A DNA stretch of 48,041 nt. Origin: a virus. Shown here in pieces: positions 2,357 through 43,756 of this stretch; the first letter of the stretch is position 1; every line of letters begins with the position of its first letter. The stretch lies in the IMG/VR virus record IMGVR_UViG_3300028747_000001; one strand, given 5' to 3'. Below the pieces are notes generated by a model. The model was given only the letters and a program-made list of their open reading frames with translations. It had not been told where the DNA came from and did not search any database. The translations under genes were made by a program, and so were the position numbers.

Positions 2357-2387
2357 ATTATACCGTAAAAACGTTAGTAACGGTCAC
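2357..2387 (-). promoter_or_regulatory. Promoter with a perfect TATAAT -10. The palindrome copy (2369-2385) overlaps the weak -35
   Basis: Minus strand reads GTGACC-gttactaacgtttttacgg-TATAAT. It is intergenic between 2394 and 2331. Confidence 0.5.
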
Positions 2388-3855: not shown

Positions 3856-3885
3856 AGTATAGAACCGTTACTAACGGTTTGGCAA
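3856..3885 (-). promoter_or_regulatory. Conserved promoter cassette with a perfect palindrome in the spacer
   Basis: Minus strand reads TTGCCA-aaccgttagtaacggttc-TATACT. The palindrome is at 3863-3879. Confidence 0.7.
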
Positions 3886-4754: not shown

Positions 4755-4783
4755 TAAAACTCCGATGTGGGTTAGGTCATCAG

Positions 4784-4812
4784 AGTATAAACCGTTACTA
4801 ACGTTCATGCAA
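4784..4812 (-). promoter_or_regulatory. Conserved promoter cassette overlapping the terL stop codon
   Basis: Minus strand reads TTGCAT-gaacgttagtaacggtt-TATACT. The palindrome is at 4790-4806. Confidence 0.65.
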
Positions 4813-6421
4813 ACAATGACGATTTCTTTTCCTGCGGTGCGTATAGGATCATCACAGAGTCCGCATAGTTCGGCGAGCGCGTGCCGTCTGGTGTCTTGTC
4901 GATGATCATCTGACCGGCCGTGTTGATGTCGTATGTCGGCTGTGACAGTTCTGCAACAAGCTTGGTCCGTACGTGCGGCGGTATCTGTTCGCTGATGCTG
5001 ATAAGTTCGTCAGGATCAAACACCGCGCCATCCACCACCGCGCGGTGCGTCTTCTCAAAGCGCATACGCAATGACCACCATGATTGTGCTTTCAGGTTCT
5101 TGAAGAAATCTTCGTTCTTGCGCGACCCGACACCACGGTCATCGCCTTTGTAGACCAGCGCGGTAGGGTTGACGACAGCACCACTACCTTTGAACTCAGT
5201 GAACTTGCGTTGCGATCCTTTGCGGTTGTCCCGACCGTTGATCTGCGCCGCGTCGCCGCGTACACCAGCGCCAAGCCCGTCGCCGTCATACCGGCAGTTG
5301 TCATAGTCAAATTCATCACAGCGCAGGAACGCCTGTTCCGTTGTCCAGAATATTGTTTTGCCCTGACCGCTCCAGGCATCTATGTGCTGTAGCTCGATAC
5401 CATGTCGACCGGCCCATGCGTTCAGGTCAAGTCCCTCATCCGCCACATCAAGCGCCGAACGACGTTCACCTTTGATCGTGATACCGAGCTTACGCGCAGC
5501 ACCGATGGCAGATTGTATCCATGCGGAAGGTATGACAACACCCTGCTTGGATGCTGAATAGTCAAGGTCAATTTCTTGCGCAACGATAAGCGGGTTAAGG
5601 TTCTCTTTCTGCTTTTCATACCATGCCTCATCCTTGCGCGGATCGTCACGCCACTGGAAGGTGAATACACGATGTTCGGGCCAACTGTGACGCTTCTCTG
5701 CGAACGGGTTGTCAAAGCCATTGACCGAACTGATGTCAATCAGGCAATTCGTGTTCTGTGACAAAGCAGCGTCGCTCAGTTGGGGCCGTTCAATAAACGC
5801 CGCTTCGTCACGGCAATAAATGGATGCGCGACCGCCCCGGCCGATGTTGTCGCCTGCTTCACCCCGGATCACTGCGCCAGTTGACGGTATCGTGATAAGC
5901 ATCGACTTGTCGCAGTCCCGTCCACCCATGACCCAACCGCCCCGGAACTCAACTGGCAGCAATGACAGGAACATGCGGATTTTGAAAAATAGACAGTCAG
6001 GGTCACCGGCACGATCAACAAGGATTTCCTTGCGCGACCCGAATCCGCCTGTGAACCCTTCGTTAGTAACGGCCAGTGCGGTGAACAGTGACACCATCAT
6101 CCATGAAAGGCCCATATCGCGCGACTTGTCACTTACTGCAAATTCTTTGGCTTTCCAACGCTCGATGACCCATTGCAGAAACTCACGTTGACGTGGGAAC
6201 AGGATCAACGGCAGCATGGCGGGGTACTGTGAGCCGACATTACGCGGGTCATACGTACATCCCCAATCTTCGATCAGGTCGATTGGATTGTGACGATAAT
6301 GCGTCAGGACCGCTTTAAGCAACGCCGGATCGGCGCGTAGCTGATGGAGCTTGTCGACGCGCCATTGAAAGATGCGCGAGTAGTCGGGAGCACGGAAGTC
6401 GTGCGCGTAGGGGTAGGGCAT
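4805..6421 (-). CDS. terL: Terminase large subunit
   Basis: 538 aa. Walker-A-like DKSRDMGLSW (the K-S/A-R-x-x-G-x-S variant typical of TerL) and a C-terminal acidic nuclease-type region. Confidence 0.85.
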   Translation of the reverse strand: MPYPYAHDFRAPDYSRIFQWRVDKLHQLRADPALLKAVLTHYRHNPIDLIEDWGCTYDPRNVGSQYPAMLPLILFPRQREFLQWVIERWKAKEFAVSDKSRDMGLSWMMVSLFTALAVTNEGFTGGFGSRKEILVDRAGDPDCLFFKIRMFLSLLPVEFRGGWVMGGRDCDKSMLITIPSTGAVIRGEAGDNIGRGGRASIYCRDEAAFIERPQLSDAALSQNTNCLIDISSVNGFDNPFAEKRHSWPEHRVFTFQWRDDPRKDEAWYEKQKENLNPLIVAQEIDLDYSASKQGVVIPSAWIQSAIGAARKLGITIKGERRSALDVADEGLDLNAWAGRHGIELQHIDAWSGQGKTIFWTTEQAFLRCDEFDYDNCRYDGDGLGAGVRGDAAQINGRDNRKGSQRKFTEFKGSGAVVNPTALVYKGDDRGVGSRKNEDFFKNLKAQSWWSLRMRFEKTHRAVVDGAVFDPDELISISEQIPPHVRTKLVAELSQPTYDINTAGQMIIDKTPDGTRSPNYADSVMILYAPQEKKSSLFA

Positions 6422-7753: not shown

Positions 7754-7783
7754 AGTATAAAACCGTTACTTTCTCACCGTCAA
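7754..7783 (-). promoter_or_regulatory. Conserved promoter cassette (half-palindrome)
   Basis: Minus strand reads TTGACG-gtgagaaagtaacggttt-TATACT. Confidence 0.6.
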
Positions 7784-8778: not shown

Positions 8779-8807
8779 AGTATGAACCGTAAGTAACGGT
8801 TTTACAA
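8779..8807 (-). promoter_or_regulatory. Conserved promoter cassette
   Basis: Minus strand reads TTGTAA-aaccgttacttacggtt-CATACT. The palindrome is at 8785-8801. Confidence 0.6.
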
Positions 8808-8817
8808 GCACAAACAA

Positions 8818-8846
8818 AACGCCCTATGCTAACCACATAGGGCGTT
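8818..8846 (-). terminator. Rho-independent terminator
   Basis: 11-bp stem aacgccctatg/catagggcgtt, then TTTTGTTTG on the minus strand. Confidence 0.75.
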
Positions 8847-8901
8847 CCTTCCAACAATGCGAACTAGCTATACGAGCCGTCGTTCGGCGTGAGAAACCTT
8901 T

Positions 8902-9249: not shown

Positions 9250-9266
9250 GATCGTTACTAACGTTA
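9250..9266. promoter_or_regulatory. Degenerate palindrome copy (13/17) with no convincing -35/-10
   Basis: gatcgttactaacgtta, about 30 nt upstream of the 9222 start. Confidence 0.35.
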
Positions 9267-10346: not shown

Positions 10347-10375
10347 TTGTCAAACCGTTAGTAACGGTCTACAAC
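10347..10375 (+). promoter_or_regulatory. Conserved promoter cassette driving the lone plus-strand gene
   Basis: TTGTCA-aaccgttagtaacggtc-TACAAC. The palindrome is at 10353-10369. Confidence 0.55.
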
Positions 10376-15193: not shown

Positions 15194-15376
15194 TTAACGA
15201 ACACCCTTGACGCCATGCTTTTCAGCCAGCGCAACGATGGCGAACCGGTAGATATCAGCGGTATTGAGGCGAATACCGGTGGCCTTTTCGGTCGCTTCAT
15301 GAACCTTGGAATAGTTCTGTTTGTCATCCTCATCAAGACGGACAGATACAAAGTTTGGGGGAATGATAGCGGGCAT
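15194..15376 (-). CDS. Ribbon-helix-helix (Arc/CopG-like) DNA-binding protein (60 aa)
   Basis: MPAIIPPNFVSVRLDEDDKQNY...: an N-terminal beta-strand then two helices. Confidence 0.5.
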   Translation of the reverse strand: MPAIIPPNFVSVRLDEDDKQNYSKVHEATEKATGIRLNTADIYRFAIVALAEKHGVKGVR

Positions 15377-16662: not shown

Positions 16663-17071
16663 AGTAGGTCACGAATGCGTTGATGATGGAATGACGCAGC
16701 GCAAATGCCGTGTCGTGGTGTTCGACGTTAAACCACTTACTTGCGCCGATCTGCACGCGCACGTCAATGTTGCTAAAGATGGTGCGAACGACAAGTGGCG
16801 CGCGACTCCATTTATACGGATGTTCCTTGTCGTTCGGGTCATAACGACACAACACGAACCCATGAGTACGTGCCACACCGACCAGTTCCAGACAGTGCAT
16901 GGTGATATTGTCCGGGTCGAACAGATAGCGGTCTGAGTCTTTGAACTGTACAAACAGCGCGTCGCCATCAAGATTCATCGACACAACAGCGCCGACAGCA
17001 AGTGCCGCCTTCACAGCACGTTGCATCGAGCCGTGAGATGGTAACGCACGCGTGATACGTTTAGTTTCCAT
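16628..17071 (-). CDS. Hypothetical protein (147 aa)
   Basis: Start at METKRITRAL... overlapping the XRE gene stop by 11 nt. Confidence 0.55.
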   Translation of the reverse strand: METKRITRALPSHGSMQRAVKAALAVGAVVSMNLDGDALFVQFKDSDRYLFDPDNITMHCLELVGVARTHGFVLCRYDPNDKEHPYKWSRAPLVVRTIFSNIDVRVQIGASKWFNVEHHDTAFALRHSIINAFVTYYDEAIAPYPEA

Positions 17072-17279
17072 TTGGCGGTTTTCCTGAAGCCAGATAATCG
17101 AGCGACACGCCAAGTGCACGCGCAACGTCGATGAATGTGAACATGTTTACGCCCTTACCGCGCTCCATGTTGTAAATCGTACCTTCGTTGACCTTGACGC
17201 GCCGGGCCAGTTCGACTTTTTCAATGCTGGCCTGCACGCGTAAGCGTCGCACACGCTGGCCGATAGATTCATTATTCAT
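17061..17279 (-). CDS. XRE/Cro-like helix-turn-helix protein (72 aa)
   Basis: IGQRVRRLRVQASIEKVELARRVKVNEGTIYNMERG matches the HTH_XRE pattern. Confidence 0.7.
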   Translation of the reverse strand: MNNESIGQRVRRLRVQASIEKVELARRVKVNEGTIYNMERGKGVNMFTFIDVARALGVSLDYLASGKPPNGN

Positions 17280-17463
17280 GAGGGAGCTTTGCATGTTGAC
17301 CGTCATACCATGAATAGGGCGGTCGTTGATTGAACGGTGCCAGTTTCCATGCGGTGAATCCGGGTCCGTTGTGACGGCGATGACGTACGAACCATGTACC
17401 GTCATCGCGCATCGCGGCTTGCTTGCGCACCGGATTGCCCATGTTGAAAATTGGCACCGTCAT
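17272..17463 (-). CDS. Hypothetical protein (63 aa)
   Basis: ATG-initiated ORF in the gene train. Confidence 0.4.
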   Translation of the reverse strand: MTVPIFNMGNPVRKQAAMRDDGTWFVRHRRHNGPGFTAWKLAPFNQRPPYSWYDGQHAKLPHE

Positions 17464-18841: not shown

Positions 18842-18873
18842 TTTAAGCTCCATTAGGGTTGACAACGGAACAG

Positions 18874-18903
18874 AGTATAAAACCGTTACTTCCATCTATG
18901 CAA
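18874..18903 (-). promoter_or_regulatory. Conserved promoter cassette (half-palindrome)
   Basis: Minus strand reads TTGCAT-agatggaagtaacggttt-TATACT-ctgttcc. Confidence 0.65.
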
Positions 18904-18915
18904 GCAGAAAATGAA

Positions 18916-18938
18916 AAGGGACGCTTCGAGCGTCCCTT
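18916..18938 (-). terminator. Rho-independent terminator
   Basis: Stem aagggacgc/gcgtccctt, then TTTTCATTTT on the minus strand. Confidence 0.65.
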
Positions 18939-18960: not shown

Positions 18961-19266
18961 TCAGTGTCTTACAAGCCGGTCGATTTCGGCGCGTAACGTT
19001 TTCTTGAGCGGTTTGGGCAGTTCATAGTGTTCGCTCGCTTCCGCCAGAGTCTTCGCGTCATTCTCCGCAACCGCATGTTCCAGCACGGCAAAGCGCAGAC
19101 CTTCACGGCCCCCAAAGTACCGGTTCAGCAGACCGTCACTCACGCCGGTTTCACGGGCCACAGCGGCGCGCGTCACCTTGCGGATGCCTTTGGTGCGGGC
19201 GATCTTGTAACCGACCAGCGTCAGTTGTGCGGTGCGCTCATCGGCGCTCATACGTTCGTTTGCCAT
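18961..19266 (-). CDS. Mini-TetR: a TetR_N-type HTH domain without a ligand-binding domain (101 aa)
   Basis: VTRAAVARETGVSDGLLNRYFGGREGL fits the TetR_N pattern (T...iA...GVS.G.lY.yF..Ke.L). Confidence 0.6.
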   Translation of the reverse strand: MANERMSADERTAQLTLVGYKIARTKGIRKVTRAAVARETGVSDGLLNRYFGGREGLRFAVLEHAVAENDAKTLAEASEHYELPKPLKKTLRAEIDRLVRH

Positions 19267-19307
19267 ACTCGATTCACTCCATTAGTTACGGTTTGGTGTT
19301 GCGGATA

Positions 19308-19796
19308 TTACAGGGTTCCGGTTCCGGTGGCAAACGCAGCGTCGCAACCGTCAGCTATCGCCAGCTTGAGAAAGTTAAGCTGCGCTGCTTCATGTCTGTC
19401 GTTCGGATTGAATGTCCACCCCTCGTGCTTTATCTCACGCATGGTGCATAGCCCGAACGTCATGCCCACGTGTTGCGGCTCGATCAGTTTGGGTCGCCAG
19501 CCAATAAGGTCGGGGGACTTAAGAACTTCGTTGGTCTGTCTGGATTCGTTTGCCAGCCCGTACCGCACGACACGCCCATCATCGTCCTTGAATGCACCGC
19601 TGTTGTTGCGGAACAGACGTACGCGCTTGTTGGCAGCTTCGATGCGCACAAGGGATTGCTGGCGCGATTCGCTACCGGGAGCGTCGTCGCTCAGTTTAGG
19701 CACGTCCATTTGATGCAAACCCATCAGCAATTTAAGGTCGTCTACAGCACGGCCATCGACGCCCCATGCACGCGCCCATTCGTCAATTGTTCGCAT
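19308..19796 (-). CDS. VRR-NUC domain nuclease (162 aa)
   Basis: RLFRNNSGAF...PDLIGW...REIKHEG follows the PD-(D/E)xK arrangement of VRR-NUC. GGAG SD at MRTIDEW. Confidence 0.65.
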   Translation of the reverse strand: MRTIDEWARAWGVDGRAVDDLKLLMGLHQMDVPKLSDDAPGSESRQQSLVRIEAANKRVRLFRNNSGAFKDDDGRVVRYGLANESRQTNEVLKSPDLIGWRPKLIEPQHVGMTFGLCTMREIKHEGWTFNPNDRHEAAQLNFLKLAIADGCDAAFATGTGTL

Positions 19797-20122: not shown

Positions 20123-21886
20123 TCACGCCTCAATTTCGTTAGTTACGGTCAGGTTTGCAGGCACAACGATACCACGATCAACAAGACTTGCGACGATTCG
20201 TTCGCGCAGTGCATACGCTTCGGGACGTCCTAACGTCATTGCCGCGTTGTGGTCTATATTGAACGCGAACCAGAACCGACGATATGCTACACGTGCGTCA
20301 AGGTCACCATAGGTTGAATACCAATAGATCATGGCCTCGCGCAACCGGTGCTGCGCGGCCTGCCGGTTCATGTGCGACTTGATGACTGCTACACGCGGTA
20401 CGCCTGCCGGTACGTACACAGCGGTTGCCGGTACATCAATGCGATCCATTTCCTGCCGGTATTGCGCCAGCAACGCCGGGTCAATTTCAGTAATGTCGCC
20501 ATCGACCTGTGCAGGGCCGCCGCGTGCGGCCGGTGGCGGGGCTTCCGTTCCGCAGTAAGGGCAACAGTGATAGATGCGCTCATAGGGGAAGGCACATTCG
20601 GGGTTGAGACATACGCGCATCGGTATGCCGTCGTCGGCCGCTGCCTTGCGTTTGGTGCCCGCATCGGTAGTCCACACGCGGGGTTTGTCAGGCGGACCTT
20701 TGTGAAAATAGAAGTTGCCAACGTGGTCGAAAATATACGCAAATGGCTTGCCGCTATCCTTGATGAATTGCAGGCGTTGCGTCACAGTGTAGCTATCCCA
20801 TGCACCTGCAAGTATTTGTGAAATCATCAAGCGAAGTGCACGACCCCACATTTGGGAGTACAGGCTAAACGATGCGGTCATGCGCGCGAACGACACGCAT
20901 TCGATGGCGGGCAGGTCAAACCCTTCGCCAAACAGGTCTACATTGACCAGTTGCCATAGCTCACGGTTGCGGAACATACGAAGCGTCTTGCGTCGGTGCC
21001 CTTCGTCGTCTTCGCCTGTGAGCATCGCGGCCGGTATGCCCTTGGAAATAAACTCCGCAGTGATCTTGCGCGCTTCCTCGATGTCCTGTGCGAACGTTAC
21101 ACCAAGCTTGCCGCGCGCGTATTTGACATAGGTGTCGACCACACTACCAACAAGCTTTTTGGACTGGTGGACAGCTTCACGTGCCTGGTCCTGATTGAAT
21201 TCGCCGTTGGCGCTAACTTCGATTCCATCTGTTGCAAGGTCATCCGGCTTGATGCAATAGACCTTATAGTCAGTCAGGTAGCCGTCGTTGATAAGTTGGC
21301 GCATCGGCGGACCTTCAACCAGCGCATCGGCAATACCATGGGCGTGACTGCCAAGCCCTTTACGGTCGGCACGGATGGGTGTCGCGGTCGGCAACAGAAA
21401 GCGGGCATTGGGGAACAGTTCGGCCGCGCGACCCCATTTGTTTTCTTTCAATACATGGTGCCCTTCGTCTATATGCACCATGCCAACCGAACCGGGCCAT
21501 TGTCCAAGATCACGCTTGGTGATGGTGTCGACCGATGCAACGCGCCACGGCGAACGGGCGTTATAGAATGTGCGCCCGAATTCCTCAACATGGGCCGCAA
21601 CGATGCTTTTGATAACCTTGTCTGACGCAATCAGGCCGTGAGGTACTTCCTCACGTGCCAGTTGAATCGACATCTGCCCTAACAGTTCGCCCCGGTGCGC
21701 GATGCTGCAACCGGCCGGAAACTGATGTTTCCACGGGATTGCGATATGATCCTTGGCGAATGATCCCATAATTACCGTCTTGCCGCCACCGGTCGCCAGT
21801 TGCATCATGACGGCGCGTTTGCCGCCCAGGTACGCGCCGTTGACGTCATCTTTCAGCTTCTGTTGAAATCCCCGCAAGTTTGACAA
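20123..21886 (-). CDS. SF2 (DEAH-type) DNA helicase, TTG start
   Basis: ATGGGKT (motif I) and HIDEGHH (motif II). AGGAGA SD 6 nt before the TTG. Confidence 0.85.
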   Translation of the reverse strand: MSNLRGFQQKLKDDVNGAYLGGKRAVMMQLATGGGKTVIMGSFAKDHIAIPWKHQFPAGCSIAHRGELLGQMSIQLAREEVPHGLIASDKVIKSIVAAHVEEFGRTFYNARSPWRVASVDTITKRDLGQWPGSVGMVHIDEGHHVLKENKWGRAAELFPNARFLLPTATPIRADRKGLGSHAHGIADALVEGPPMRQLINDGYLTDYKVYCIKPDDLATDGIEVSANGEFNQDQAREAVHQSKKLVGSVVDTYVKYARGKLGVTFAQDIEEARKITAEFISKGIPAAMLTGEDDEGHRRKTLRMFRNRELWQLVNVDLFGEGFDLPAIECVSFARMTASFSLYSQMWGRALRLMISQILAGAWDSYTVTQRLQFIKDSGKPFAYIFDHVGNFYFHKGPPDKPRVWTTDAGTKRKAAADDGIPMRVCLNPECAFPYERIYHCCPYCGTEAPPPAARGGPAQVDGDITEIDPALLAQYRQEMDRIDVPATAVYVPAGVPRVAVIKSHMNRQAAQHRLREAMIYWYSTYGDLDARVAYRRFWFAFNIDHNAAMTLGRPEAYALRERIVASLVDRGIVVPANLTVTNEIEA

Positions 21887-21902
21887 ATCGTTCTCCTGTT
21901 GC

Positions 21903-21931
21903 TTGCATTAACGTTAGTAACGGATTATGCT
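21903..21931 (+). promoter_or_regulatory. Conserved promoter cassette for the plus-strand replication operon
   Basis: TTGCAT-taacgttagtaacggat-TATGCT-ctgttcc. The palindrome is at 21909-21925. Confidence 0.65.
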
Positions 21932-21952
21932 CTGTTCCGTCGTACCTATCAA
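21924..21952 (-). promoter_or_regulatory. Divergent promoter for the helicase operon. Its -10 overlaps the plus-strand -10
   Basis: Minus strand reads TTGATA-17 nt-CATAAT. The palindrome begins at the -10 edge and covers the TSS. Confidence 0.55.
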
Positions 21953-21970
21953 CCTACAGAGGCCTACAAA

Positions 21971-23395
21971 ATGGCATATCTCGTATTTCAGTTCCCGACC
22001 GACATCAGCGCAGCGGAGGCAATCCACGCCGTTGCGAATCACTTTGCGGTTGGCGTGAGCATTCTTGGTCAACCGGCCAATGTTCCGCAGCATATCAAAC
22101 AGGCCGTTGAACGTATCGGCGCGGCCGACAGCCCCGACGCTGGCACAGAGCAAAGCCCGGCTATTGCGTTCGGCAGTCTGTTGAATGGCGCGGCAGCGGG
22201 AAACGGGATTGCGGTGTCTGCTCAGTCTTCTGCGGATGCCGCAACGTCACAGACTGCCCACGCGGTGCAGACGGATACTTCTCAAACATCGGCGCTCGCG
22301 TCATCCATCCCTGTACTGCCGCCCGGCGCTACGGTGACTGCCACAACGCCACCGGCAAATGCGGTCCCTTCGAACCCTGCAAGCGTCGAGTTTGATTCGA
22401 GCGGACTGGCGTGGGATGAGCGTATTCATAGCGGCAACAAGACGAAAACGCCGGGCGGCGAGTGGCGCTCGCGCAAGGGTGTCGACAAGAATCTCATCAA
22501 GTCGGTCGAACTGGAATTGCGCGCACGGTATGGCGCGGGAAACGCCCCGGTCGCACAGGTAGGCGGCGCAACTGTCGGTACTGCGGATACCCCTGCTTCT
22601 GCGTCACTTGACCCCATCAGTAAGAAGCAGGCAGCACTTGCATACGCCAAGACACAGGCGCTCCGCGTCGCCGGGCCGCAGCAGATTGACGACCCGATGC
22701 TTGAAGGCATTATGTCTGGAACCGTCAAATCATATTCGGTATCGCCGGGGCAAGGTGAGTGGCTCACCATCTATTACGCGAAGTTCCAGGCGGCATACAA
22801 GGAATTCATGGACGCCCCAAACGGTGTGCCCGGCGCACACGTTGCGAGCGCATCACCGCAGACGACTGGCAGCACTCCCGTAGCGCCAGCGGGGACGGCG
22901 AGCAACACGGATGTATCCCTGACGGCGGCGGTTGGTACGCTTGCCCCTGTACCGAATGCCCCGCAAGGCGAGCTAGACGCAACTGGTTTGCCTTGGGATG
23001 AACGCATTAATGTACCCGCGAAGATAAAGGACGCGAACGGCGTCTGGTTGCAACGCTTCGACGTACCAGGCGAAACTAAATTGCTGGTCATGGCGGAACT
23101 GCGTAAGGCGCTTGAGGGAAACGCACAGGCGTCTGGTTCGCCCAATGGGGTCGCTGGTATTACACCGCCTGTGCTGGTAACGGCCGAACAGGCGGCGGCG
23201 GACTTCCCCAAGTTGATGCAATGGGTAGTTGCTAACCAGCAAGCCAAGCGTATCAGTATCACAGATGCATCCGATGCGGCGCGTGATGTTGGCTTTGTGG
23301 ATGCTGGCGGTAACGGTCAACTGGCGCTGATGCGCGAACACACCGCAGCTTTCCCGTACGTCGTGCAAATCCTGCAAGCGAAAGGGGCAATCTGA
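21971..23395 (+). CDS. Low-complexity protein with two copies of a G-L-(A/P)-W-D-E-R-I module (474 aa)
   Basis: Start at MAYLVFQF... (AGAGG SD). The upstream part of the track ORF is inside the promoter. Confidence 0.65.
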   Translation: MAYLVFQFPTDISAAEAIHAVANHFAVGVSILGQPANVPQHIKQAVERIGAADSPDAGTEQSPAIAFGSLLNGAAAGNGIAVSAQSSADAATSQTAHAVQTDTSQTSALASSIPVLPPGATVTATTPPANAVPSNPASVEFDSSGLAWDERIHSGNKTKTPGGEWRSRKGVDKNLIKSVELELRARYGAGNAPVAQVGGATVGTADTPASASLDPISKKQAALAYAKTQALRVAGPQQIDDPMLEGIMSGTVKSYSVSPGQGEWLTIYYAKFQAAYKEFMDAPNGVPGAHVASASPQTTGSTPVAPAGTASNTDVSLTAAVGTLAPVPNAPQGELDATGLPWDERINVPAKIKDANGVWLQRFDVPGETKLLVMAELRKALEGNAQASGSPNGVAGITPPVLVTAEQAAADFPKLMQWVVANQQAKRISITDASDAARDVGFVDAGGNGQLALMREHTAAFPYVVQILQAKGAI

Positions 23396-24561
23396 TGGCC
23401 GACGCGAGTCCATACGCGTTGCGGTTGTCGCATGCCGCGTCGTGGGTTCGCTGCGCCGCATTCTCACGCATGAACCGCACGCCACAAGCGGCAATCATAG
23501 AGAATGCGGCGGACCACACGGTACGCGAAGAAGGGACCGCGATGCACGAAGCGGCGCATTGGATGTTCATGGGTCTTGATGTATCGAGCAGTGCCAAGAT
23601 GTCAAATGGTGTTGTGCTTGACGATGAAATGGTCGATGCAGCGCAATTTTATTTTGATACGGTGATGGGATATGACGATTCTCTGGCAGAGTGGGTCATC
23701 GAGCGTCAACTTGCTGCACCACGCATTCATGCTCAGTGCGGCGGCACGCCCGATGCGTTCGCGTTGTACGATGAACCGTTCGGTAATGTGCGCCCGGTTC
23801 ACATTCGAATCGTCGATTTCAAAGGAGGCTATCGTTTCGTAGACGTTTTTCTTAACTGGCAATTGATGGGCTATCTAGCTGCGATTTTGGATTATGCGCC
23901 GGGGTTTGACGAAAATGATACGGTTGTTGAGTTCGTCATCGTACAACCGCGCTGTTACCATCGTGACGGTCCGGTTCGTACGTTTCGTACAACTGTTGGC
24001 GAATGCCGCGACCATATCAATGCGTTGCATCACGCGGCTGCTATTGCGATGGGTGACTATGCGCAGGCTGTGTCAGGCCCGCAATGTGGCGATTGCGCCG
24101 GTCGGGCATCGTGCAGTGTTGCGCATGCTGCCGCAGGGCGAGCGCTTGAAGTGGCTGGCGAACCTGACGTTTATGATTTGCCGGTCAACGCCCTTGATTA
24201 TGAAATGCAACGCATCGAGCAGGCACAAGCTATCTTGCAGGCACGGTTGACCGGGTTGCAGGCGCAGGCTTCATATCTCATCCGCAAGGGTGCGGTGTTA
24301 CCTCACTATGCACTCGAATCGGGTCAGGGTCGGTTGATGTGGCTCGATGAAAACGCAGAGCAGGCAGCGCTTACGATGGGCGACCTGATGGGCGCAGACT
24401 TGCGCAAACCTGCACGGGCTATCACGCCGCTGCAGGCGCTTCACAAGATGCCAAAAGAGTTGATTGAGCAATACGCGCAACGTCGGCGCGGTGAAGTAAA
24501 GTTGGTTCGCTTTGACAGCAATGCAGCGGTTAAAGCTTTTTCTCATTTGAAGAAGGATTAA
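23395..24561 (+). CDS. PD-(D/E)xK exonuclease, DUF2800/Cas4-like with a C-terminal Cys cluster
   Basis: LSHAASWVRCAA..., VDFKGGY...NWQLMGY, GPQCGDCAGRASC. Sits directly upstream of the SSB-like and polymerase-like genes (24565-27573). Confidence 0.7.
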   Translation: MADASPYALRLSHAASWVRCAAFSRMNRTPQAAIIENAADHTVREEGTAMHEAAHWMFMGLDVSSSAKMSNGVVLDDEMVDAAQFYFDTVMGYDDSLAEWVIERQLAAPRIHAQCGGTPDAFALYDEPFGNVRPVHIRIVDFKGGYRFVDVFLNWQLMGYLAAILDYAPGFDENDTVVEFVIVQPRCYHRDGPVRTFRTTVGECRDHINALHHAAAIAMGDYAQAVSGPQCGDCAGRASCSVAHAAAGRALEVAGEPDVYDLPVNALDYEMQRIEQAQAILQARLTGLQAQASYLIRKGAVLPHYALESGQGRLMWLDENAEQAALTMGDLMGADLRKPARAITPLQALHKMPKELIEQYAQRRRGEVKLVRFDSNAAVKAFSHLKKD

Positions 24562-24564: not shown

Positions 24565-25617
24565 ATGGCAAAGGTTCAGTTCACAAGCCCCGTTGGTCGC
24601 ATCGTATTCGGTTCGGTATGGGATGGGTCGACCACCGATTCCAAGGGTCAACCGCGCGTCATAAAAAGCGGTCCTAACAAGGGTCAACCCGCTACGCAAT
24701 GGTCATTCGGCGTGGCGTTCCCGAAGGTGCTGGCGAATAGTGCGCCGAACGCGGAGTTCAACACTTTCCGTGCGATGATTCTCGATGCGGGTCGCGCCGG
24801 TTATCCGCAGTTTTTCAACGGCCCAATCGACCCGTTGACGGGTAAGCCAGGTATTACGCAAGGCGTCGTATTTGCCACCAAGATCAAGGATGGCGATGGT
24901 TTCGACACCAAGGGACAAGACAACAAGTTGAAAGAAGGTTGGGCCGGTCATTGGGTTGTTGTGTTTTCGAGCCAGTACGCGCCGCGTAATTTCGATCTGC
25001 AAATCGGGCTTGACCCGACGCAACAATTGCAGGACAAGACGCGCGTACTACCGGGCGATTATGTTGCGGTCTGCGGAACTGTTGACGCCAATGTCGGCGC
25101 GGAAACGCCCGGTGTGTACGTCAACGCCAACATGGTGTGTCTGGTCGGCGGCGGACCGCGCATTGTGAGTGGTCCAAAAGCGTCGGAAGCATTCAAGGGT
25201 GTCACGGCTGGTGCTTTGCCACCCGGTTGCGTGCCCGGTGCAAATCCGGCAAGCGTAGGGGCCGCTCCGTTGCCGCCCGCAACCGGTGTGCCCACGCCGC
25301 CTACACCCCCGACGCCACCTGTCGCCCACGATCCTATTGCGAAGGCAACCGCTGATGGATGGATAGTGCACCCGCAAGCACCGGGCTATCGGTACAAAGG
25401 TCAGGATGTCAAGACTGACGCAGAGGTTGCGGCGCTTTATCCGGCCCCTGCACCCGTACCGCCGACGCCACCTGTCGCACCCGTACCGCCAACGCCACCT
25501 GTCGCGGGTCCACAACTGACACCGGCAGCGTTGGCAGCAGGCTTTACGTCGTATCAGCAAGCTATCGGTAACGGTTGGGATGATACGATGTTGCGGCAAA
25601 GCGGTTATCTGGTCTAA
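24565..25617 (+). CDS. ssDNA-binding protein (T7 gp2.5-like/DUF2815-like) with a Pro/Thr-rich C-terminal extension
   Basis: The N-terminus MAKVQFTSPVGRIVFGSVW resembles gp2.5 MAKKIFTSALG.... Position in the module. Confidence 0.55.
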   Translation: MAKVQFTSPVGRIVFGSVWDGSTTDSKGQPRVIKSGPNKGQPATQWSFGVAFPKVLANSAPNAEFNTFRAMILDAGRAGYPQFFNGPIDPLTGKPGITQGVVFATKIKDGDGFDTKGQDNKLKEGWAGHWVVVFSSQYAPRNFDLQIGLDPTQQLQDKTRVLPGDYVAVCGTVDANVGAETPGVYVNANMVCLVGGGPRIVSGPKASEAFKGVTAGALPPGCVPGANPASVGAAPLPPATGVPTPPTPPTPPVAHDPIAKATADGWIVHPQAPGYRYKGQDVKTDAEVAALYPAPAPVPPTPPVAPVPPTPPVAGPQLTPAALAAGFTSYQQAIGNGWDDTMLRQSGYLV

Positions 25618-25677: not shown

Positions 25678-27573
25678 ATGACTAAACGCCCCATCGCTTT
25701 TTTCGATCTGGAAACGTACCGTAACTATTTCCTCTGCAAGTTTCTGTTACCGACCGATGAATACGTCGAGTTCGCTATGTTTCCGGGCCAACCGTTAAAT
25801 CGCGTGGGCGTGCTGCTAATGCTCGCTCGATACACGATTGTTGGTTTCAACAGCGGCAATTACGATTGCCCTATTCTGGCGCTCGCATTGACCGGCGCAG
25901 ACAATCAGGCACTCAAAGATGCTAACGATATGTTGTACGCGCGTGGCACGAAACCATGGGAGTTTTACCGCGCGTACAACATATCGATGCCCACATGTAC
26001 GGATCACATCGACATCATGGAAGTGTTGCCCGGTGTGCGCATCAGTCTTAAAGCCTATGCTGGCATCGCGCATTGCCCGACGATTCAGGATTTGCCGATT
26101 GACCCGTCACAAGATATCAGCCCCATCGAGCGCATTCGTCTGTCGACCTATTGCGGCAATGATTTGCGAGTTACGCGAAGGTTGTACGAAATCGCATGCG
26201 ATAAAGAATGGATACCGCTGCGCGAACATATCAGCGATGAAATCGGCATTGACGTACGCAGCAAGTCAGATGCACAGATATCCGAAGCAATCACACGTGC
26301 CAAGCTTGGATTCCGGCCGGAACCTATCCAACGACCTAGCGGTTATCAGTTCACATATCGCGTGCCGTCAAACATCAGCTTTCAGACCGAACAGTTGCAG
26401 GAAGCGCTACGCATTGTCGCGACGTCGCCTTTTACGGTGATGCACAAGGAAGAAGAAACCGACGAACTGGATAGCGACGGCAACAAGATCAAATCCGGTA
26501 TCAAGATGCATAAGGACATCGCGGCTATCCGCATCAAGATTGGCACCAGCGTTTATAAATTCGGCGCAGGCGGTCTGCATTCTCAGGAGTCCGGCGTATG
26601 GTACGAAACAACCGCGACGCATCAGATATGCGATAGCGATGTCGGTTCGTTTTATCCAAAGGTCATCATCAATCAGGAGCTTTACCCGGAACAGTGCGGA
26701 CCAGGACAGTTGATTATTTACAAGACAGTGTTTGTCGAGCGTATCGCTGCGAAACGCGCCGGTCGCAAGAAAGAAGGTAACAGCAAAAAGATTGTGTTGA
26801 ACGGATGGTTCGGCAAGCTTGGCAGCAAATACAGCATGGCCTATGCACCTGAATTATTGATGCAAGTAACGATCAGCGGGCAATTGATGTTGCTGATGCT
26901 TATCGAAGCGCTCGAACTGAGCGGTATCAGTGTCGTGTCGGCCAACACAGACGGTATCGTGACACGGTGCCCAACACCGCTCATACCGCGCCGCAATGTC
27001 ATCATGAAAGAGTGGGAACGCATTGTTGATATGGAACTGGAACACCAGGCGTACAAAGGCATTTACTTCCGCGACGTCAACAACTACTTTGCTATTACTG
27101 ACAAAGACGAAGTTAAGCGCAAAGGTATTTTCGTACACGCGGAAGTCGGCAGCGGCCCATCATCATCGAAAGCGCCACATCGGGAAATCTGTATGGATGC
27201 GGTCATCGCCTACGTCCAACACGGGGTGCCGCTCGATGAAACGATCTACAGGTGCCGCGATATCCGCAAGTTCGTATCATCGCGCACGGTTAAAGGGGGT
27301 GCTGTCAGACGGCTCTATGAAGGTACCGAGCATGAACCATTTGACCAGCAACAACCGGGTTCATATGAAGTGTTTGGCAAGGTTGTCCGATGGGCATACC
27401 GGCGCGACTATACCAGCGCTATCCATTACAAAACGAATGGCAATCAGGTTGCAGACAGCACCGGGGCATGGCCTTTGATGACGCTGCCGGATGCTGTACC
27501 TGACTGGATTGATTACGAATACTATGTGGCACATGCCCGCAAACTGTTGGACTCATTGAAGGTGACGCGATGA
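25678..27573 (+). CDS. DNA polymerase with an N-terminal 3'-5' exonuclease and B-family-like motifs
   Basis: Exonuclease motifs FDLETY, FNSGNYD, YCGND. Polymerase motifs DVGSFYPKVII (DxxSLYPS-like), KIVLNGWFGK (KxxxNSxYG-like), NTDG. Confidence 0.75.
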   Translation: MTKRPIAFFDLETYRNYFLCKFLLPTDEYVEFAMFPGQPLNRVGVLLMLARYTIVGFNSGNYDCPILALALTGADNQALKDANDMLYARGTKPWEFYRAYNISMPTCTDHIDIMEVLPGVRISLKAYAGIAHCPTIQDLPIDPSQDISPIERIRLSTYCGNDLRVTRRLYEIACDKEWIPLREHISDEIGIDVRSKSDAQISEAITRAKLGFRPEPIQRPSGYQFTYRVPSNISFQTEQLQEALRIVATSPFTVMHKEEETDELDSDGNKIKSGIKMHKDIAAIRIKIGTSVYKFGAGGLHSQESGVWYETTATHQICDSDVGSFYPKVIINQELYPEQCGPGQLIIYKTVFVERIAAKRAGRKKEGNSKKIVLNGWFGKLGSKYSMAYAPELLMQVTISGQLMLLMLIEALELSGISVVSANTDGIVTRCPTPLIPRRNVIMKEWERIVDMELEHQAYKGIYFRDVNNYFAITDKDEVKRKGIFVHAEVGSGPSSSKAPHREICMDAVIAYVQHGVPLDETIYRCRDIRKFVSSRTVKGGAVRRLYEGTEHEPFDQQQPGSYEVFGKVVRWAYRRDYTSAIHYKTNGNQVADSTGAWPLMTLPDAVPDWIDYEYYVAHARKLLDSLKVTR

Positions 27574-27746
27574 TTCACATTCACTTTGTGTTCTATGAGG
27601 ATGAGCCCGACCCTGACGAAATGCCGCTTGTGTACCGGATGGGCGTTGAGTCAACGATTGGTCAGGTTATACCGCAGCGGGTGTTTGATACGTTGGGGCG
27701 TTGTGCCTACATGCCAATGATCGCCAACGTTGTTTATTTGCATTGA
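27570..27746 (+). CDS. Unlisted 58-aa ORF coupled to the polymerase (MIHIHFVFYEDEPDPDEMPLVYRMG...)
   Basis: ATGA overlap with the polymerase stop. My own translation. Below the track's cut-off. Confidence 0.4.
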   Translation: MIHIHFVFYEDEPDPDEMPLVYRMGVESTIGQVIPQRVFDTLGRCAYMPMIANVVYLH

Positions 27747-27750
27747 TCGC

Positions 27751-27779
27751 TTGCAAACCGTTACTAACGGTTCTATACT
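27751..27779 (+). promoter_or_regulatory. Best copy of the conserved promoter cassette (perfect palindrome)
   Basis: TTGCAA-accgttactaacggttc-TATACT-ctgttca. The palindrome is at 27756-27772. Confidence 0.75.
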
Positions 27780-27815
27780 CTGTTCACGGTTAACGAAACA
27801 GCAAGGGGAAACGAA

Positions 27816-28046
27816 ATGAACGCAGATCGGCGCAAACGCTTAGAAAAAGCGCAAGAGTTGCTTGATGAAGCGCGCGGAATCATTGAAGAATGTCGCGACG
27901 AGGAACAGGAATATTACGACAACATGCCAGAAGGTTTTCAACAGGGCGAGAAGGGTCAACAGGCCGAAGCTGCGGCAAGCCAACTTGACGAATGCGTAAG
28001 CAATATTGACAGTGCGATTGACAATATTAACAACGCAAGCGAATAA
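27816..28046 (+). CDS. Strongly acidic 76-aa protein
   Basis: AAGGGGA SD. Many D/E residues against only 8 K/R by count. Own promoter and terminator. Confidence 0.7.
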   Translation: MNADRRKRLEKAQELLDEARGIIEECRDEEQEYYDNMPEGFQQGEKGQQAEAAASQLDECVSNIDSAIDNINNASE

Positions 28047-28063
28047 CCCAACCGCCCCAAGTG

Positions 28064-28090
28064 AAACGGCCCGCATCGAGCGGGCCGTTT
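28064..28090. terminator. Bidirectional terminator at the convergence of the plus operon and the late minus block
   Basis: 11-bp stem aaacggcccgc/gcgggccgttt with A/T flanks. Confidence 0.75.
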
Positions 28091-28091
28091 G

Positions 28092-28343
28092 TCATGTGGT
28101 GGCACTTACCTGCAAGGTCTGAGACTGCCAGAACGTCTGCAATCGTTGATAAAGCAGATTCAGTGATGCCAGCGGATTGTTACCGATTGCCACTGCGGCA
28201 CCGCCCGGTATCGTGTATGCGGTCGGATAGAACACCACGTACTTTTGCGACGTCGCCATGAACTGTGCGCACAGCGGATGTGCCTGAATTGCTGCGGTCG
28301 CGTCCGCCACGGTGGTGAAATTACTTGTTGATGTATCCGTCAT
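28092..28343 (-). CDS. Hypothetical protein (83 aa), last gene of the late block
   Basis: Start at MTDTSTS... with GGAG SD. Confidence 0.5.
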   Translation of the reverse strand: MTDTSTSNFTTVADATAAIQAHPLCAQFMATSQKYVVFYPTAYTIPGGAAVAIGNNPLASLNLLYQRLQTFWQSQTLQVSATT

Positions 28344-43269: not shown

Positions 43270-43285
43270 TTGCCATACTCCGTTA

Positions 43286-43756
43286 TTAACGGTTCGCCAA
43301 CTGGTTCGCCACCCAACCCGTGCCCGTCTTTTCGAGTTCGGTTGGCAGCGCTTCAGAACCGTCTTTCTTGGCGTTCTGATAATCGGCCGGTGTGAGCGGG
43401 CCGCTAGGATCGCGCGGGTTCATGTCGCCAACCATCTTGTCAACGTCGTACGCCTTGCGTTCAACACGGATGAAACCCTTGGCAATGAAATCTTTCCAGT
43501 GCGACAGTTCGCGAACCGCTTCATACTCATCTTCAGTAATCGCGGTGTGGACACCCTGCGGTGTAATCAGATTTTTGGTCGCGATGCCTGCGCCACCACG
43601 AATCAGAACTTCGCGTTCAACGACGGGCAATCGACCCATCTGAGTTGCGTCGGTCGGATCGGGCATCGAATACCGCGTGAATTTTTGCGGGTTCGCCAAC
43701 GTGCTGAAAACGTGAACGGTACCCGTCGATTTTTGTGCTACCTGTTTGCCTGACAT
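43286..43756 (-). CDS. Hypothetical virion-module protein (156 aa)
   Basis: ORF after the capsid terminator. Confidence 0.5.
   Translation of the reverse strand: MSGKQVAQKSTGTVHVFSTLANPQKFTRYSMPDPTDATQMGRLPVVEREVLIRGGAGIATKNLITPQGVHTAITEDEYEAVRELSHWKDFIAKGFIRVERKAYDVDKMVGDMNPRDPSGPLTPADYQNAKKDGSEALPTELEKTGTGWVANQLANR

What the first reader, a model, noticed from the sequence alone, without database searches (positions are those of the whole stretch)
21903..21952. Back-to-back divergent early promoters with overlapping -10 boxes and a shared palindromic operator
The plus promoter is TTGCAT (21903), 17 nt, TATGCT (21926-21931). The minus promoter is TTGATA (21952-21947), 17 nt, CATAAT (21929-21924). 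Their -10 hexamers overlap by 4 bp, so two RNA polymerases cannot occupy both at once.

The palindrome (21909-21925) lies in the plus spacer and over the minus TSS. This 50-bp segment therefore controls both replication operons: helicase through primase leftward, and exonuclease-SSB-polymerase rightward. It looks like a compact switch.

The helicase gene starts with TTG behind an AGGAGA SD.
Basis: partly seen in the sequence, partly recalled or inferred. Interest (0 to 1): 0.65.

Follow-up and report, generated by a model that had tools for sequence, protein, structure and literature searches.

The report
Two-way phage promoter with shared operator
This 50-bp stretch is very probably a real two-way promoter between a phage's two DNA-replication gene blocks, but its palindrome is one copy of a genome-wide operator, probably for the phage's own half-size TetR-type regulator, so it is a new example of a known design.

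Summary
By consensus matching alone the promoter pair is not beyond chance. The plus promoter scores only 7/12, and such pairs occur 3 times against 1.8 ± 1.7 in shuffles. Comparison supplies the support. In 9 of 11 related phage genomes both -35 boxes, the critical A and T of the -10, and the palindrome are kept, with -10 boxes overlapping by 4-5 bp.

The window is a complete 47.9-kb BcepB1A-like myophage genome. The palindrome (consensus AACCGTTAsTAACGGTT) is not private to this locus. Twelve copies exist against about 1.4 expected, and six lie in the 17-18-nt spacer of TTGCAA/TATACT promoters.

The likeliest binder is a conserved 101-aa TetR-type protein. It is the last gene of the leftward unit and has a weak operator copy before its own start. 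Phages BcepB1A and Psp6 carry different palindromes at the same syntenic positions, together with diverged homologues of this protein.

The "helicase through primase" operon is contradicted by two strong terminators, and the first rightward gene is a 474-aa unknown. Verdict: a real bidirectional promoter plus operator, and a new member of a known kind.

The parts
21903..21908 (+). -35 hexamer TTGCAT of the rightward promoter
   Evidence: Read. The TGC at 21904-21906 is invariant in 11 genomes. It is in the same register as the other TTGCAA/TATACT family promoters.
21926..21931 (+). -10 hexamer TATGCT of the rightward promoter. The predicted start is near 21938, 33 nt before the ATG at 21971.
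   Evidence: Read. A21927 and T21931, which are positions 2 and 6 of the hexamer, are invariant across 11 genomes.
21947..21952 (-). -35 hexamer TTGATA of the leftward promoter (TTGATG in most relatives)
   Evidence: Listed as part of a 10/12 match. CATCAA on the + strand is at least 90% conserved and is present in 9 of 11 genomes.
21924..21929 (-). -10 hexamer CATAAT of the leftward promoter. It overlaps the plus -10 by 4 bp. The predicted start is near 21917, 31 nt before the TTG start.
   Evidence: Relatives carry CATAAT, TATAAT, TATCAT, TACTAT or TATGAT at 17-18 nt from the -35.
21909..21925 (.). Operator copy TAACGTTAGTAACGGAT, with a perfect core at 21912-21922. It lies in the plus spacer and over the predicted minus start site.
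   Evidence: weight-matrix score 22.8 bits. Core columns are at least 90% conserved in 11 genomes.
20123..21886 (-). Helicase gene, with TTG start and AGGAGA at 21892-21897. [quoted passage not shown]
   Evidence: Pfam Helicase_C and ResIII, and phrog_16 at 2e-70. The start aligns with an ATG in L006 and L007.
21971..23395 (+). First rightward gene, 474 aa, function unknown (AGAGG at 21958-21962). The exonuclease (23395-24561), gp2.5-like SSB (24565-25617) and DNA polymerase (25678-27573) follow.
   Evidence: BcepB1A gp66 occupies the same position.
18961..19266 (-). Candidate regulator: a 101-aa TetR-type helix-turn-helix protein, the last gene before the terminator of the leftward unit
   Evidence: Pfam TetR_N at 9.6e-8, 32.1 bits against a cut-off of 24. 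43 homologues of about 100 aa. The HTH region is invariant. The model has pLDDT 92 and all top Foldseek hits are TetR-family.
19277..19293 (.). Weak operator copy AACCGTAACTAATGGAG, centred 19 nt before the regulator's ATG
   Evidence: One search finds a site at 11-22 nt before the ATG (18-22 nt in all but L006) in the window and all 9 in-clade relatives examined.
19305..19333 (-). Promoter-like TTGCCA-17-TAATAT ahead of the regulator gene. It overlaps the 3' end of the upstream gene.
   Evidence: 9/12. It is conserved in relatives, but the stretch is coding, so the conservation is ambiguous.
18916..18938 (-). Intrinsic terminator (10-bp stem plus a T tract) that ends the leftward unit
18874..18903 (-). 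Family promoter TTGCAT-18-TATACT with only the -10-proximal half-site AGTAACGGTT. It has the same CTCTGTTCCGT downstream of the -10 as the finding's plus promoter.
27751..27779 (+). Family promoter TTGCAA-17-TATACT with a perfect operator (27756-27772). It lies after the polymerase gene and before a 76-aa gene.
   Evidence: 27.8 bits. The syntenic copy in L149 is shown.
20134..20150 (.). Operator copy inside the helicase 3' end, just before the next gene's ribosome-binding site. No promoter hexamers accompany it.
   Evidence: It is conserved in L005, L146, L147, L148, L150 and L151. Psp6 has a syntenic copy at 13273.
10347..10375 (+). Family promoter TTGTCA-17-TACAAC with an operator at 10353-10369
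8779..8807 (-). Family promoter TTGTAA-17-CATACT with an operator at 8785-8801. It directly follows the terminator at 8848-8816.
7754..7783 (-). Family promoter TTGACG-18-TATACT with the half-site AGTAACGGTT
4784..4812 (-). Family promoter TTGCAT-17-TATACT with an operator at 4790-4806
3856..3885 (-). Family promoter TTGCCA-18-TATACT with an operator at 3863-3879. It follows the terminator at 3931-3902.
2369..2385 (.). Operator copy over the -35 region of a TATAAT promoter, ahead of the gene at 2128-2331 and the portal gene
43278..43294 (.). Operator copy overlapping the GGAG of the structural gene 42826-43269. No promoter is present.
9250..9266 (.). Operator copy without promoter hexamers
6058..6074 (.). 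Operator copy inside the large-terminase gene (4805-6421)
   Evidence: The gene is assigned by collinearity with BcepB1A gp33.

Best explanation
The segment is a genuine bidirectional promoter read by the host's housekeeping RNA polymerase.

Rightward, TTGCAT-17-TATGCT drives the 474-aa gene, the exonuclease, the SSB and the DNA polymerase. Leftward, TTGATA-17-CATAAT drives the helicase, a 112-aa gene, a nuclease and a 101-aa TetR-type protein. That unit ends at the terminator at 18938-18916.

The two -10 boxes overlap, and the predicted start sites are about 21 bp apart. The shared core carries one copy of a phage-wide palindromic operator, consensus AACCGTTAsTAACGGTT.

The proposed mechanism has four steps, all inferred.
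1. Host polymerase fires both promoters on entry.
2. The leftward transcript yields the small TetR-type protein.
3. Its dimer binds the operator, filling the gap between the plus -35 and -10 and covering roughly -8 to +9 of the minus promoter. Both directions are damped together.
4. The same protein acts on at least 8 other promoters that carry a full or half operator, and on a weak copy in front of its own gene.

The result would be negative feedback, or a timed shut-off, of a whole regulon. The replication control region is one node of that regulon, not a stand-alone switch.

Shown here: the sequence elements, their conservation, the recurrence of the motif, and the TetR fold of the candidate. 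Inferred: transcription starts, the binding partner, and the sign of regulation.
For: Promoter elements:
- They are at the stated coordinates.
- Across 11 genomes the intergenic sequence is only 61% identical on average. The invariant columns fall on TGC of the plus -35, the palindrome core, positions 2 and 6 of the plus -10, and CATCAA of the minus -35.
- 9 of 11 genomes keep both promoters, with a 4-5-bp -10 overlap and start sites 18-21 bp apart. In L002 the geometry is the canonical 18 bp (TATTATA).
- In L147 and L148 the palindrome has slid 4 nt towards the -35, yet the hexamers keep their 17-nt spacing. Promoter and operator are therefore constrained separately.

The motif:
- 12 copies against 1.41 expected. 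It is the most repeated palindrome in the genome.
- At 6 sites it sits in a 17-18-nt spacer, 20-50 nt before a start codon that has a ribosome-binding site. Syntenic copies exist in relatives.

The regulator:
- TetR_N scores above the Pfam cut-off, and the fold matches TetR-family proteins.
- It is present in every relative, with an invariant HTH.
- A weak operator lies 11-22 nt before its ATG in the window and all 9 in-clade relatives examined.

Covariation between regulator and operator:
- BcepB1A has a 34%-identical homologue, gp59, with N48 and R49 of the recognition helix changed. It has 8 copies of a different palindrome, AGATAwTATCT, against 0.9 expected. These lie in the helicase/gp66 intergenic region, before and after gp59, and after the polymerase gene.
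- Psp6 has a 39%-identical homologue and 8 copies of ATCATAAnTTATGAT against 0.48 expected. These lie in the divergent region, at the helicase 3' end, after the TetR-like gene and after the polymerase gene.

Literature: the bidirectional promoter class, and steric exclusion of two polymerases, are described in the papers read.
Against: - No transcript or binding data exist for this phage, and the host is unknown.
- The plus promoter is a weak match to the consensus (7/12), and the hexamer pair alone is not significant.
- L006 has an 8-nt insertion that breaks the minus-promoter geometry. L007 has only a shifted, weak minus promoter.
- The distant relative L123 keeps the same palindrome core although its TetR-like recognition helix differs (TGPLVIRYI against SDGLLNRYF). 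That is awkward for a strict regulator-operator pairing.
- L008 has a homologue of the protein but no clear repeated palindrome in 9.7 kb.
- Two promoters carry only the half-site next to the -10. That would fit a promoter-specificity element as well as a degenerate operator.
- Several copies lie before ribosome-binding sites or inside genes without any promoter (20142, 43286, 9258, 6066). Their role is unexplained.
- Two other possible DNA-binding proteins are encoded: an XRE-type HTH at 17061-17405 and a ribbon-helix-helix-looking ORF at 15194-15376.
Confidence: 0.55

Rival explanations
1. The promoters and the operator are real, but a different protein binds the palindrome. Candidates are the XRE-type HTH protein (17061-17405), the ribbon-helix-helix-looking 60-aa ORF upstream of the primase (15194-15376), or a host transcription factor.
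For: The XRE protein has a clear HTH_3 domain at 1.2e-8. By eye, the 60-aa ORF has a strand-helix-helix pattern. L123 keeps the palindrome although its TetR-like recognition helix differs.
Against: The XRE protein is only 28-53% identical in relatives outside the near-identical strains. It was not detected in L003/L146, L004/L145, L006 or L123, all of which carry the palindrome. The 60-aa ORF matches no Pfam family. A host factor would not explain why BcepB1A and Psp6 have different palindromes at the same syntenic sites, each alongside a diverged TetR-like gene that has a copy in front of it.
Confidence: 0.2
2. The palindrome, or its half next to the -10, is a positive promoter element. A phage protein bound in the spacer would recruit or redirect host polymerase to this class of promoters (a middle-gene activator), and would not repress them.
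For: Two family promoters keep only the half-site AGTAACGGTT directly next to TATACT. The -35 hexamers are imperfect (TTGCAA, TTGCAT, TTGTAA). The motif is nearly always in a fixed register with the -10.
Against: Spacers are the optimal 17-18 nt, and both hexamers are recognisable. Spacer-binding activators of the MerR type need over-long spacers. In L147 and L148 the palindrome slides 4 nt relative to the hexamers. Copies occur away from any promoter. TetR-family proteins are mostly repressors (own knowledge).
Confidence: 0.12
3. Only one direction is a working promoter, or the helicase promoter lies elsewhere. The repeated palindrome would then mainly serve a non-transcriptional role, such as a junction for swapping gene cassettes by recombination.
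For: Homology between near-identical strains breaks exactly at the -10 of the 4798 promoter. L006 and L007 lack a good minus promoter. The hexamer statistics are weak.
Against: The helicase has no upstream gene on its strand, so a promoter must lie within about 100 bp of its start, and the conserved TTGATG sits there in 9 of 11 genomes. All promoter-type copies are 20-50 nt upstream of starts that have ribosome-binding sites. Recombination at a shared regulatory cassette is compatible with that cassette also being functional.
Confidence: 0.08

Closest known systems
Bidirectional bacterial promoters with shared or overlapping -10 elements (Warman, Grainger and colleagues; bioRxiv 10.1101/2020.01.31.928960; NAR 2026, PMC12825309)
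   Same: Divergent starts lie either side of overlapping -10 hexamers. Predicted separation is 18-21 bp, inside the defining 7-25 bp range, and L002 has the modal 18-bp geometry with A(-11) paired to T(-7). Two polymerases cannot bind at once.
   Different: Both -35 boxes are good and conserved here, so this is not merely a by-product of -10 symmetry. The element sits in a phage genome and drives two essential replication units. The start sites are predicted, not mapped.
TetR-family-controlled divergent regions: Tn10 tetR/tetA (own knowledge) and E. coli PacrA/acrR (PMC12825309)
   Same: A TetR-type HTH protein is paired with an odd-length palindromic operator inside overlapping divergent promoters. 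The regulator is made from one of the two arms, which gives negative autoregulation.
   Different: The phage protein is about 100 aa, half the usual size, and has no ligand-binding domain, so no inducer is evident. It lies 2.6 kb downstream as the fourth gene, not next to the operator. There is one operator here, against two in tet. The same operator is spread over about 12 sites.
Phage repressors with many dispersed operators: mycobacteriophage L5 gp71 stoperators, P1 C1, phiC31 conserved inverted repeats (own knowledge)
   Same: One phage-encoded protein has many copies of a short site across the genome. Some copies are in promoters and some lie between genes in transcribed regions.
   Different: Those phages are temperate, and the protein maintains lysogeny. 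L5 and P1 sites are asymmetric and depend on orientation. Here the sites are symmetric. No integrase was seen in the ORFs that were scanned and no prophage relative was found. The relative BcepB1A was described as virulent (own knowledge).
Burkholderia phage BcepB1A (NC_005886)
   Same: The genomes are collinear. The arrangement is helicase gp65 | gp66-exonuclease-SSB-polymerase, with the TetR-family gene gp59 downstream of the helicase and a repeated 5-N-5 palindrome at the same syntenic promoters.
   Different: Protein identity is only 34-44%. The palindrome is AGATAwTATCT and it overlies the -10 itself, not the spacer.

Membership tests
Bidirectional promoter (Warman/Grainger definition) | -10 elements on opposite strands coincide or overlap | tested here: met
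   The overlap is 4 bp in the window (21926-21929) and 4-5 bp in 9 of 11 related genomes.
Bidirectional promoter (Warman/Grainger definition) | Divergent transcription start sites 7-25 bp apart | not testable with these tools
   A separation of 18-21 bp is predicted from a 7-nt distance between -10 and start. No transcript data are available.
Sigma-70-type promoter | TTGACA-like and TATAAT-like hexamers 16-18 nt apart, upstream of a gene | tested here: met
   The minus promoter scores 10/12. The plus promoter scores 7/12 but keeps TTG and TAnnnT, 17 nt apart. Both lie 31-33 nt before start codons that have ribosome-binding sites.
TetR family of transcription regulators (candidate regulator 18961-19266) | N-terminal three-helix HTH DNA-binding domain (PF00440) | tested here: met
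   32.1 bits against a cut-off of 24. The Foldseek top 50 hits are all TetR-family at probability 0.95-1.0. A profile search against the PDB gives 1.8e-7 to HapR residues 11-76.
TetR family of transcription regulators (candidate regulator 18961-19266) | C-terminal ligand-binding and dimerisation domain of about 130 aa (helices 4-9) | tested here: not met
   The protein is 101 aa with six helices. All 43 homologues are 81-106 aa. PDB relatives are 183-237 aa.
TetR family of transcription regulators (candidate regulator 18961-19266) | Dimer binds a palindromic operator | not testable with these tools
   The operator is a 15-17-bp palindrome with a central base pair, which is compatible. Support is indirect: the palindrome and the regulator change together in BcepB1A and Psp6.
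MerR-type spacer-binding activators | Over-long (19-20 bp) spacer between -35 and -10 | tested here: not met
   Spacers are 17-18 nt at all family promoters.
Stoperator-type repressor sites (mycobacteriophage L5) | Asymmetric sites in one orientation relative to transcription | tested here: not met
   The sites are two-fold symmetric, and the central base (G, C, A or T) shows no strand preference.
Temperate-phage immunity region | Integrase or partition genes, and prophage copies in bacterial genomes | tested here: inconclusive
   No integrase or recombinase was found in about 50 ORFs scanned. No close relative was found in 185,579 genomes. Not every ORF was scanned, and Psp6 has a ParB-like gene.
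Known structured RNA | Match to an Rfam family, or a fold significantly more stable than shuffles | tested here: not met
   No Rfam hit in the window. Fold z-scores of both leader sequences are -0.62 and +0.40.

The most novel reading that the evidence does not exclude
A half-size, ligand-domain-less 'mini-TetR' is the master regulator of a whole group of BcepB1A-like phages that look virulent. Each lineage would have evolved its own operator word (CGTTAnTAACG, AGATAwTATCT, ATCATAAnTTATGAT) while keeping the same wiring:
- the bidirectional replication promoter;
- the regulator's own gene;
- the gene after the polymerase;
- the accessory cassettes.

The terminator-promoter-operator cassettes would also double as recombination junctions through which accessory genes are swapped between strains. 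If true, this gives a natural set of compact, mutually orthogonal repressor/operator/promoter parts, and a defined temporal circuit for a poorly studied phage group.
Probability: 0.35. Interest if true: 0.55.

Novelty: new member of a known kind. Interest (0 to 1): 0.4.

Why it matters
Regulatory circuits of non-model phages are almost never worked out. Here comparative sequence alone yields a testable wiring diagram. It has one small regulator, one operator word and about nine promoters, including the two-way promoter that co-ordinates the two halves of the replication machinery.

BcepB1A and Psp6 are cultured, so the model can be tested directly. If it holds, the 100-aa TetR-type proteins and their lineage-specific operators would be compact orthogonal parts for synthetic biology. 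They would also offer a case study of how operator and regulator co-evolve while the wiring stays fixed.

As a promoter architecture, however, it is an instance of a class already shown to be common in bacteria.

Tried and rejected
- **Close DNA relatives among 50,697 deposited phages:** none. Protein-level relatives are only 41-49% identical.
- **Prophage relatives in 185,579 bacterial genomes:** none, so neither the host nor a temperate lifestyle could be established.
- **Scan of IMG/VR for ACCGTTANTAACGGT:** mostly chance hits in unrelated contigs, so uninformative as a census. It did bring in L123.
- **Consensus-only statistics for a divergent promoter pair:** not significant. My first version used too strict a -35 rule and missed the site.
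- **RNA-level readings:** no Rfam family, no tRNA, and leader folds no better than shuffles. The palindrome as an RNA hairpin was rejected, because it lies upstream of the plus start and is split by the minus start.
- **MerR-like activation:** rejected on spacer length.
- **XRE-type HTH as regulator:** considered less likely because it is poorly conserved and absent from several relatives.
- **Acidic 76-aa protein after the polymerase (27816-28046):** considered as an autoregulated regulator because of its perfect operator-bearing promoter, but it shows no DNA-binding signature.
- **L008, the most distant helicase relative:** no convincing repeated palindrome.
- **A second bidirectional arrangement at the 10361 divergent region:** no minus-strand -10 was found when reading.
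- **The original BcepB1A genome paper:** could not be retrieved.
- **Pfam or PHROG on about 50 ORFs:** most small accessory proteins have no match.

Full report
**1. What the window is**

The window carries a 127-bp terminal direct repeat. It is therefore a circularly assembled, complete phage genome of about 47.9 kb, with 54% G+C.

It has no close DNA relative among deposited phages. Its helicase is 41-49% identical to those of Stenotrophomonas phage Silvanus, Pseudomonas phage Psp6, Burkholderia phage BcepB1A and the Klebsiella jedunaviruses. Gene order is collinear with BcepB1A.

Almost everything runs leftward:
- helicase 20123-21886;
- primase 12545-15172;
- small terminase 11570-12385;
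- large terminase 4805-6421, assigned by collinearity;
- portal 383-2074;
- then, across the ends, the head, tail and lysis genes down to about 28.1 kb.

Only one block runs rightward: a 474-aa unknown (21971-23395), a DUF2800/PD-(D/E)XK exonuclease, a gp2.5-like SSB, the DNA polymerase and two small genes. The finding lies in the 84-bp gap between the helicase and this block.

**2. Checking the observation**

- Plus strand: TTGCAT 21903-08, 17 nt, TATGCT 21926-31.
- Minus strand: TTGATA 21952-47, 17 nt, CATAAT 21929-24.
- The -10 boxes overlap by 4 bp.
- AGGAGA 21897-92 lies 5 nt before the TTG at 21886.

The TTG aligns with an ATG in L006 and L007, so it is the true start.

The palindrome is perfect over only 11 bp (21912-21922).

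On hexamers alone the case is weak. The plus promoter matches the consensus at 7/12, and divergent pairs of this quality occur 3 times in the window against 1.84 ± 1.71 in shuffles.

**3. Comparative evidence for the promoters**

Scans of IMG/VR returned related contigs whose helicase is 62-98% identical. I extracted the helicase/474-aa-gene spacer from ten distinct genomes and aligned them.

Mean column identity is 61%. The invariant or near-invariant columns are:
- TGC of the plus -35;
- the palindrome core;
- A21927 and T21931, the two positions of a -10 box that matter most;
- CATCAA, which is the minus -35 read on the plus strand;
- a short TCCGT near the predicted plus start.

L002's flanking genes are 95-98% identical to the window, but its spacer has been largely rewritten. 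It still has TTGCAA, a perfect 15-bp palindrome, and TATTATA, which reads as TATTAT on one strand and TATAAT on the other.

A mechanical search for the best promoter on each strand gives overlapping -10 boxes (4-5 bp) and predicted start-site separations of 18-21 bp in 8 genomes. A ninth, L005, was resolved by hand. L006 has an insertion that breaks the minus geometry, and L007 has only a weak shifted candidate.

In L147 and L148 the palindrome has moved 4 nt towards the -35 while the hexamers keep their 17-nt spacing. This indicates separate constraints on promoter and operator.

**4. The palindrome is genome-wide**

CGTTAnTAACG, allowing 1 mismatch, occurs 12 times against 1.41 expected, and 0 of 100 shuffles reach 12. 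It is the most repeated palindrome in the genome. A symmetrised weight matrix gives the consensus AACCGTTAsTAACGGTT and 12 sites of at least 14.9 bits.

Six sites lie in the 17-18-nt spacer of TTGCAA/TATACT-type promoters, 20-50 nt upstream of start codons that have ribosome-binding sites. These are 3871(-), 4798(-), 8793(-), 10361(+), 21917(+) and 27764(+). A seventh (2377) lies over the -35 region of a TATAAT promoter. Two more promoters (7754-7783 and 18874-18903, both minus) carry only the half-site next to the -10, AGTAACGGTT.

The remaining copies have no promoter hexamers:
- 20142, in the helicase 3' end just before the next ribosome-binding site;
- 19285;
- 43286;
- 9258;
- 6066, inside the large-terminase gene.

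Syntenic copies of the promoter-type sites, and of the 20142 site, recur in relatives. The finding's 'shared operator' is thus one node of a regulon.

**5. Transcription units**

A 10-bp-stem terminator at 18938-18916(-) follows the fourth leftward gene. It is followed at once by a family promoter. A second strong terminator at 15464-15442(-) precedes a 60-aa ORF and the primase.

The leftward unit fired from the finding most likely comprises the helicase, a 112-aa gene, a nuclease (phrog_93) and the 101-aa gene. It does not run 'helicase through primase'.

**6. The candidate regulator**

Of about 50 ORFs scanned, two have DNA-binding domains: 18961-19266(-), TetR_N at 9.6e-8, and 17061-17405(-), HTH_3 at 1.2e-8.

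The TetR-type protein is found in every relative at 57-99% identity. The XRE protein is 28-53% identical outside the near-identical strains and undetected in several relatives.

A database search found 43 homologues, all 81-106 aa and mostly on 46-48-kb contigs. The HTH segment GIRKVTRAAVARETGVSDGLLNRYFGGREGLR is nearly invariant.

An AlphaFold model (pLDDT 92, six helices) matches only TetR-family structures (LuxR/HapR/SmcR, TetR; probability about 1). A profile search of the PDB hits the N-terminal 65 residues of the same proteins. The protein is half the length of those relatives and so lacks their ligand-binding domain.

A weak operator copy (AACCGTAACTAATGG) is centred 19 nt before its ATG. 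A comparable site lies 11-22 nt before the ATG in the window and all nine in-clade relatives examined.

L123 is a more distant collinear relative that was found only through the DNA pattern. It encodes a 40%-identical homologue and has two TTGACG-17-TAGnAT promoters with the palindrome in the spacer.

**7. Covariation across lineages**

BcepB1A gp59, annotated as TetR-family, is 34% identical, with N48 and R49 of the recognition helix replaced. BcepB1A lacks the CGTTAnTAACG word. It has 8 copies of AGATAwTATCT against 0.9 expected. These lie in the helicase/gp66 gap, about 30 nt before gp59, just after gp59, after the polymerase gene and in the accessory region.

Psp6 has a 39%-identical homologue and 8 copies of ATCATAAnTTATGAT against 0.48 expected. 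These lie in the divergent replication gap, in the helicase 3' end, after the TetR-like gene and after the polymerase gene.

So three lineages have three operator words and the same wiring. This is the strongest argument that the palindrome is the site of a phage-encoded protein that co-evolves with it, and that the TetR-type protein is that protein.

Two cautions apply. L123 keeps the window's word although its recognition helix differs, and L008 shows no clear motif.

**8. Mechanism**

Bidirectional promoters with overlapping -10 elements are a described and common class. Their start sites lie 7-25 bp apart, with 18 bp the mode, and they account for 19% of E. coli start sites. Opposing polymerases exclude each other. 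Competition becomes significant only at high activity. A regulator bound in the spacer masks the divergent start.

Here a dimer on 21909-21925 would fill the plus spacer and cover the minus start. With optimal spacers and recognisable hexamers, repression is the expected outcome.

The regulator is encoded in the leftward unit and has a weak site before its own gene. The simplest model is therefore negative feedback, or a timed shut-off, that lowers both replication units and the other operator-bearing promoters together. All of this is inference.

**9. Rivals and verdict**

The rivals are:
- another binder (XRE, RHH-like or host factor);
- an activating or specificity role for the motif;
- a mainly recombinational role for the cassette.

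None is excluded, but each explains less.

The architecture is a new member of a known kind. The regulon built around a mini-TetR is the more novel, and still unproven, part.

Noticed in passing
window 4783-4812; also 3902-3931 with 3856-3885, 8816-8848 with 8779-8807, 18916-18938 with 18874-18903: Accessory genes between the terminase and portal genes are organised as terminator, then operator-bearing promoter, then gene(s). Between strains that are otherwise 92-100% identical, homology breaks exactly at the -10 of the 4798 promoter (position 4783), and a different cassette follows. The conserved regulatory block may act as a recombination junction for swapping cassettes, reminiscent of promoter-stem-loop cassettes in T4-type phages (own knowledge).
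   Followed up: partly
window 20134-20150, 43278-43294, 9250-9266, 6058-6074: These operator copies have no promoter hexamers. Two lie immediately before or over a ribosome-binding site, and one lies inside the large-terminase gene. The copy at the helicase 3' end is conserved in six relatives and has a syntenic counterpart in Psp6 (13273-13287). The role is unknown; it could be a roadblock, an auxiliary site or a relic.
   Followed up: partly
window 21932-21942, 18863-18873 (-), 27780-27790: Three replication-region promoters share the sequence CTCTGTTC(C/A) directly after the -10. TCCGT at 21936-21940, around the predicted plus start, is at least 90% conserved across 11 genomes. It may be an initial-transcribed-region element or a further half-site.
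   Followed up: no
window 3158-3823 (-): A 221-aa protein with a signal peptide and a weak outer-membrane beta-barrel match (PF13505, 7e-5, below the cut-off). It is driven by its own operator-bearing promoter. This is a moron-like cargo gene that is unusual for a phage that looks virulent.
   Followed up: no
window 15194-15376 (-): A 60-aa ORF between a strong terminator and the primase. By eye its sequence (VSVRLDEDD... followed by two helices) looks like a ribbon-helix-helix DNA-binding protein. It has no Pfam match.
   Followed up: partly
window 17061-17405 (-): A second HTH protein (XRE/Cro-C1 type, HTH_3 at 1.2e-8). It diverges fast among relatives, and its target is unknown.
   Followed up: partly
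window 21971-23395 (+): The first rightward gene is a 474-aa protein of unknown function (phrog_11133). It has a long Ala/Ser/Gln-rich low-complexity stretch and locally raised G+C (0.61). BcepB1A gp66 occupies the same slot.
   Followed up: no
window 1-127 and 47915-48041: An exact 127-bp terminal direct repeat. The window is a circularly closed assembly, so the true genome is about 47,914 bp, and the portal and head genes are contiguous across the ends.
   Followed up: yes
L156/L157 (BcepB1A NC_005886: 23196, 26421, 26471, 27696, 36855, 37238, 41084, 46399) and L158 (Psp6: 5550, 5606, 10963, 13273, 16406, 30781, 41973): Cultured relatives carry their own over-represented palindromes (AGATAwTATCT; ATCATAAnTTATGAT) at syntenic promoters. 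In BcepB1A the palindrome overlies a symmetric -10 (TAATAT/TATTAT) and not the spacer.
   Followed up: partly
window 27574-28528: The segment after the polymerase gene holds the 58-aa and 76-aa genes and the 27764 promoter. It is replaced by unrelated sequence in several strains that are otherwise 93-98% identical (L143, L152, L153). This is another mosaic hot spot, located at the convergence of the rightward and leftward transcription.
   Followed up: no
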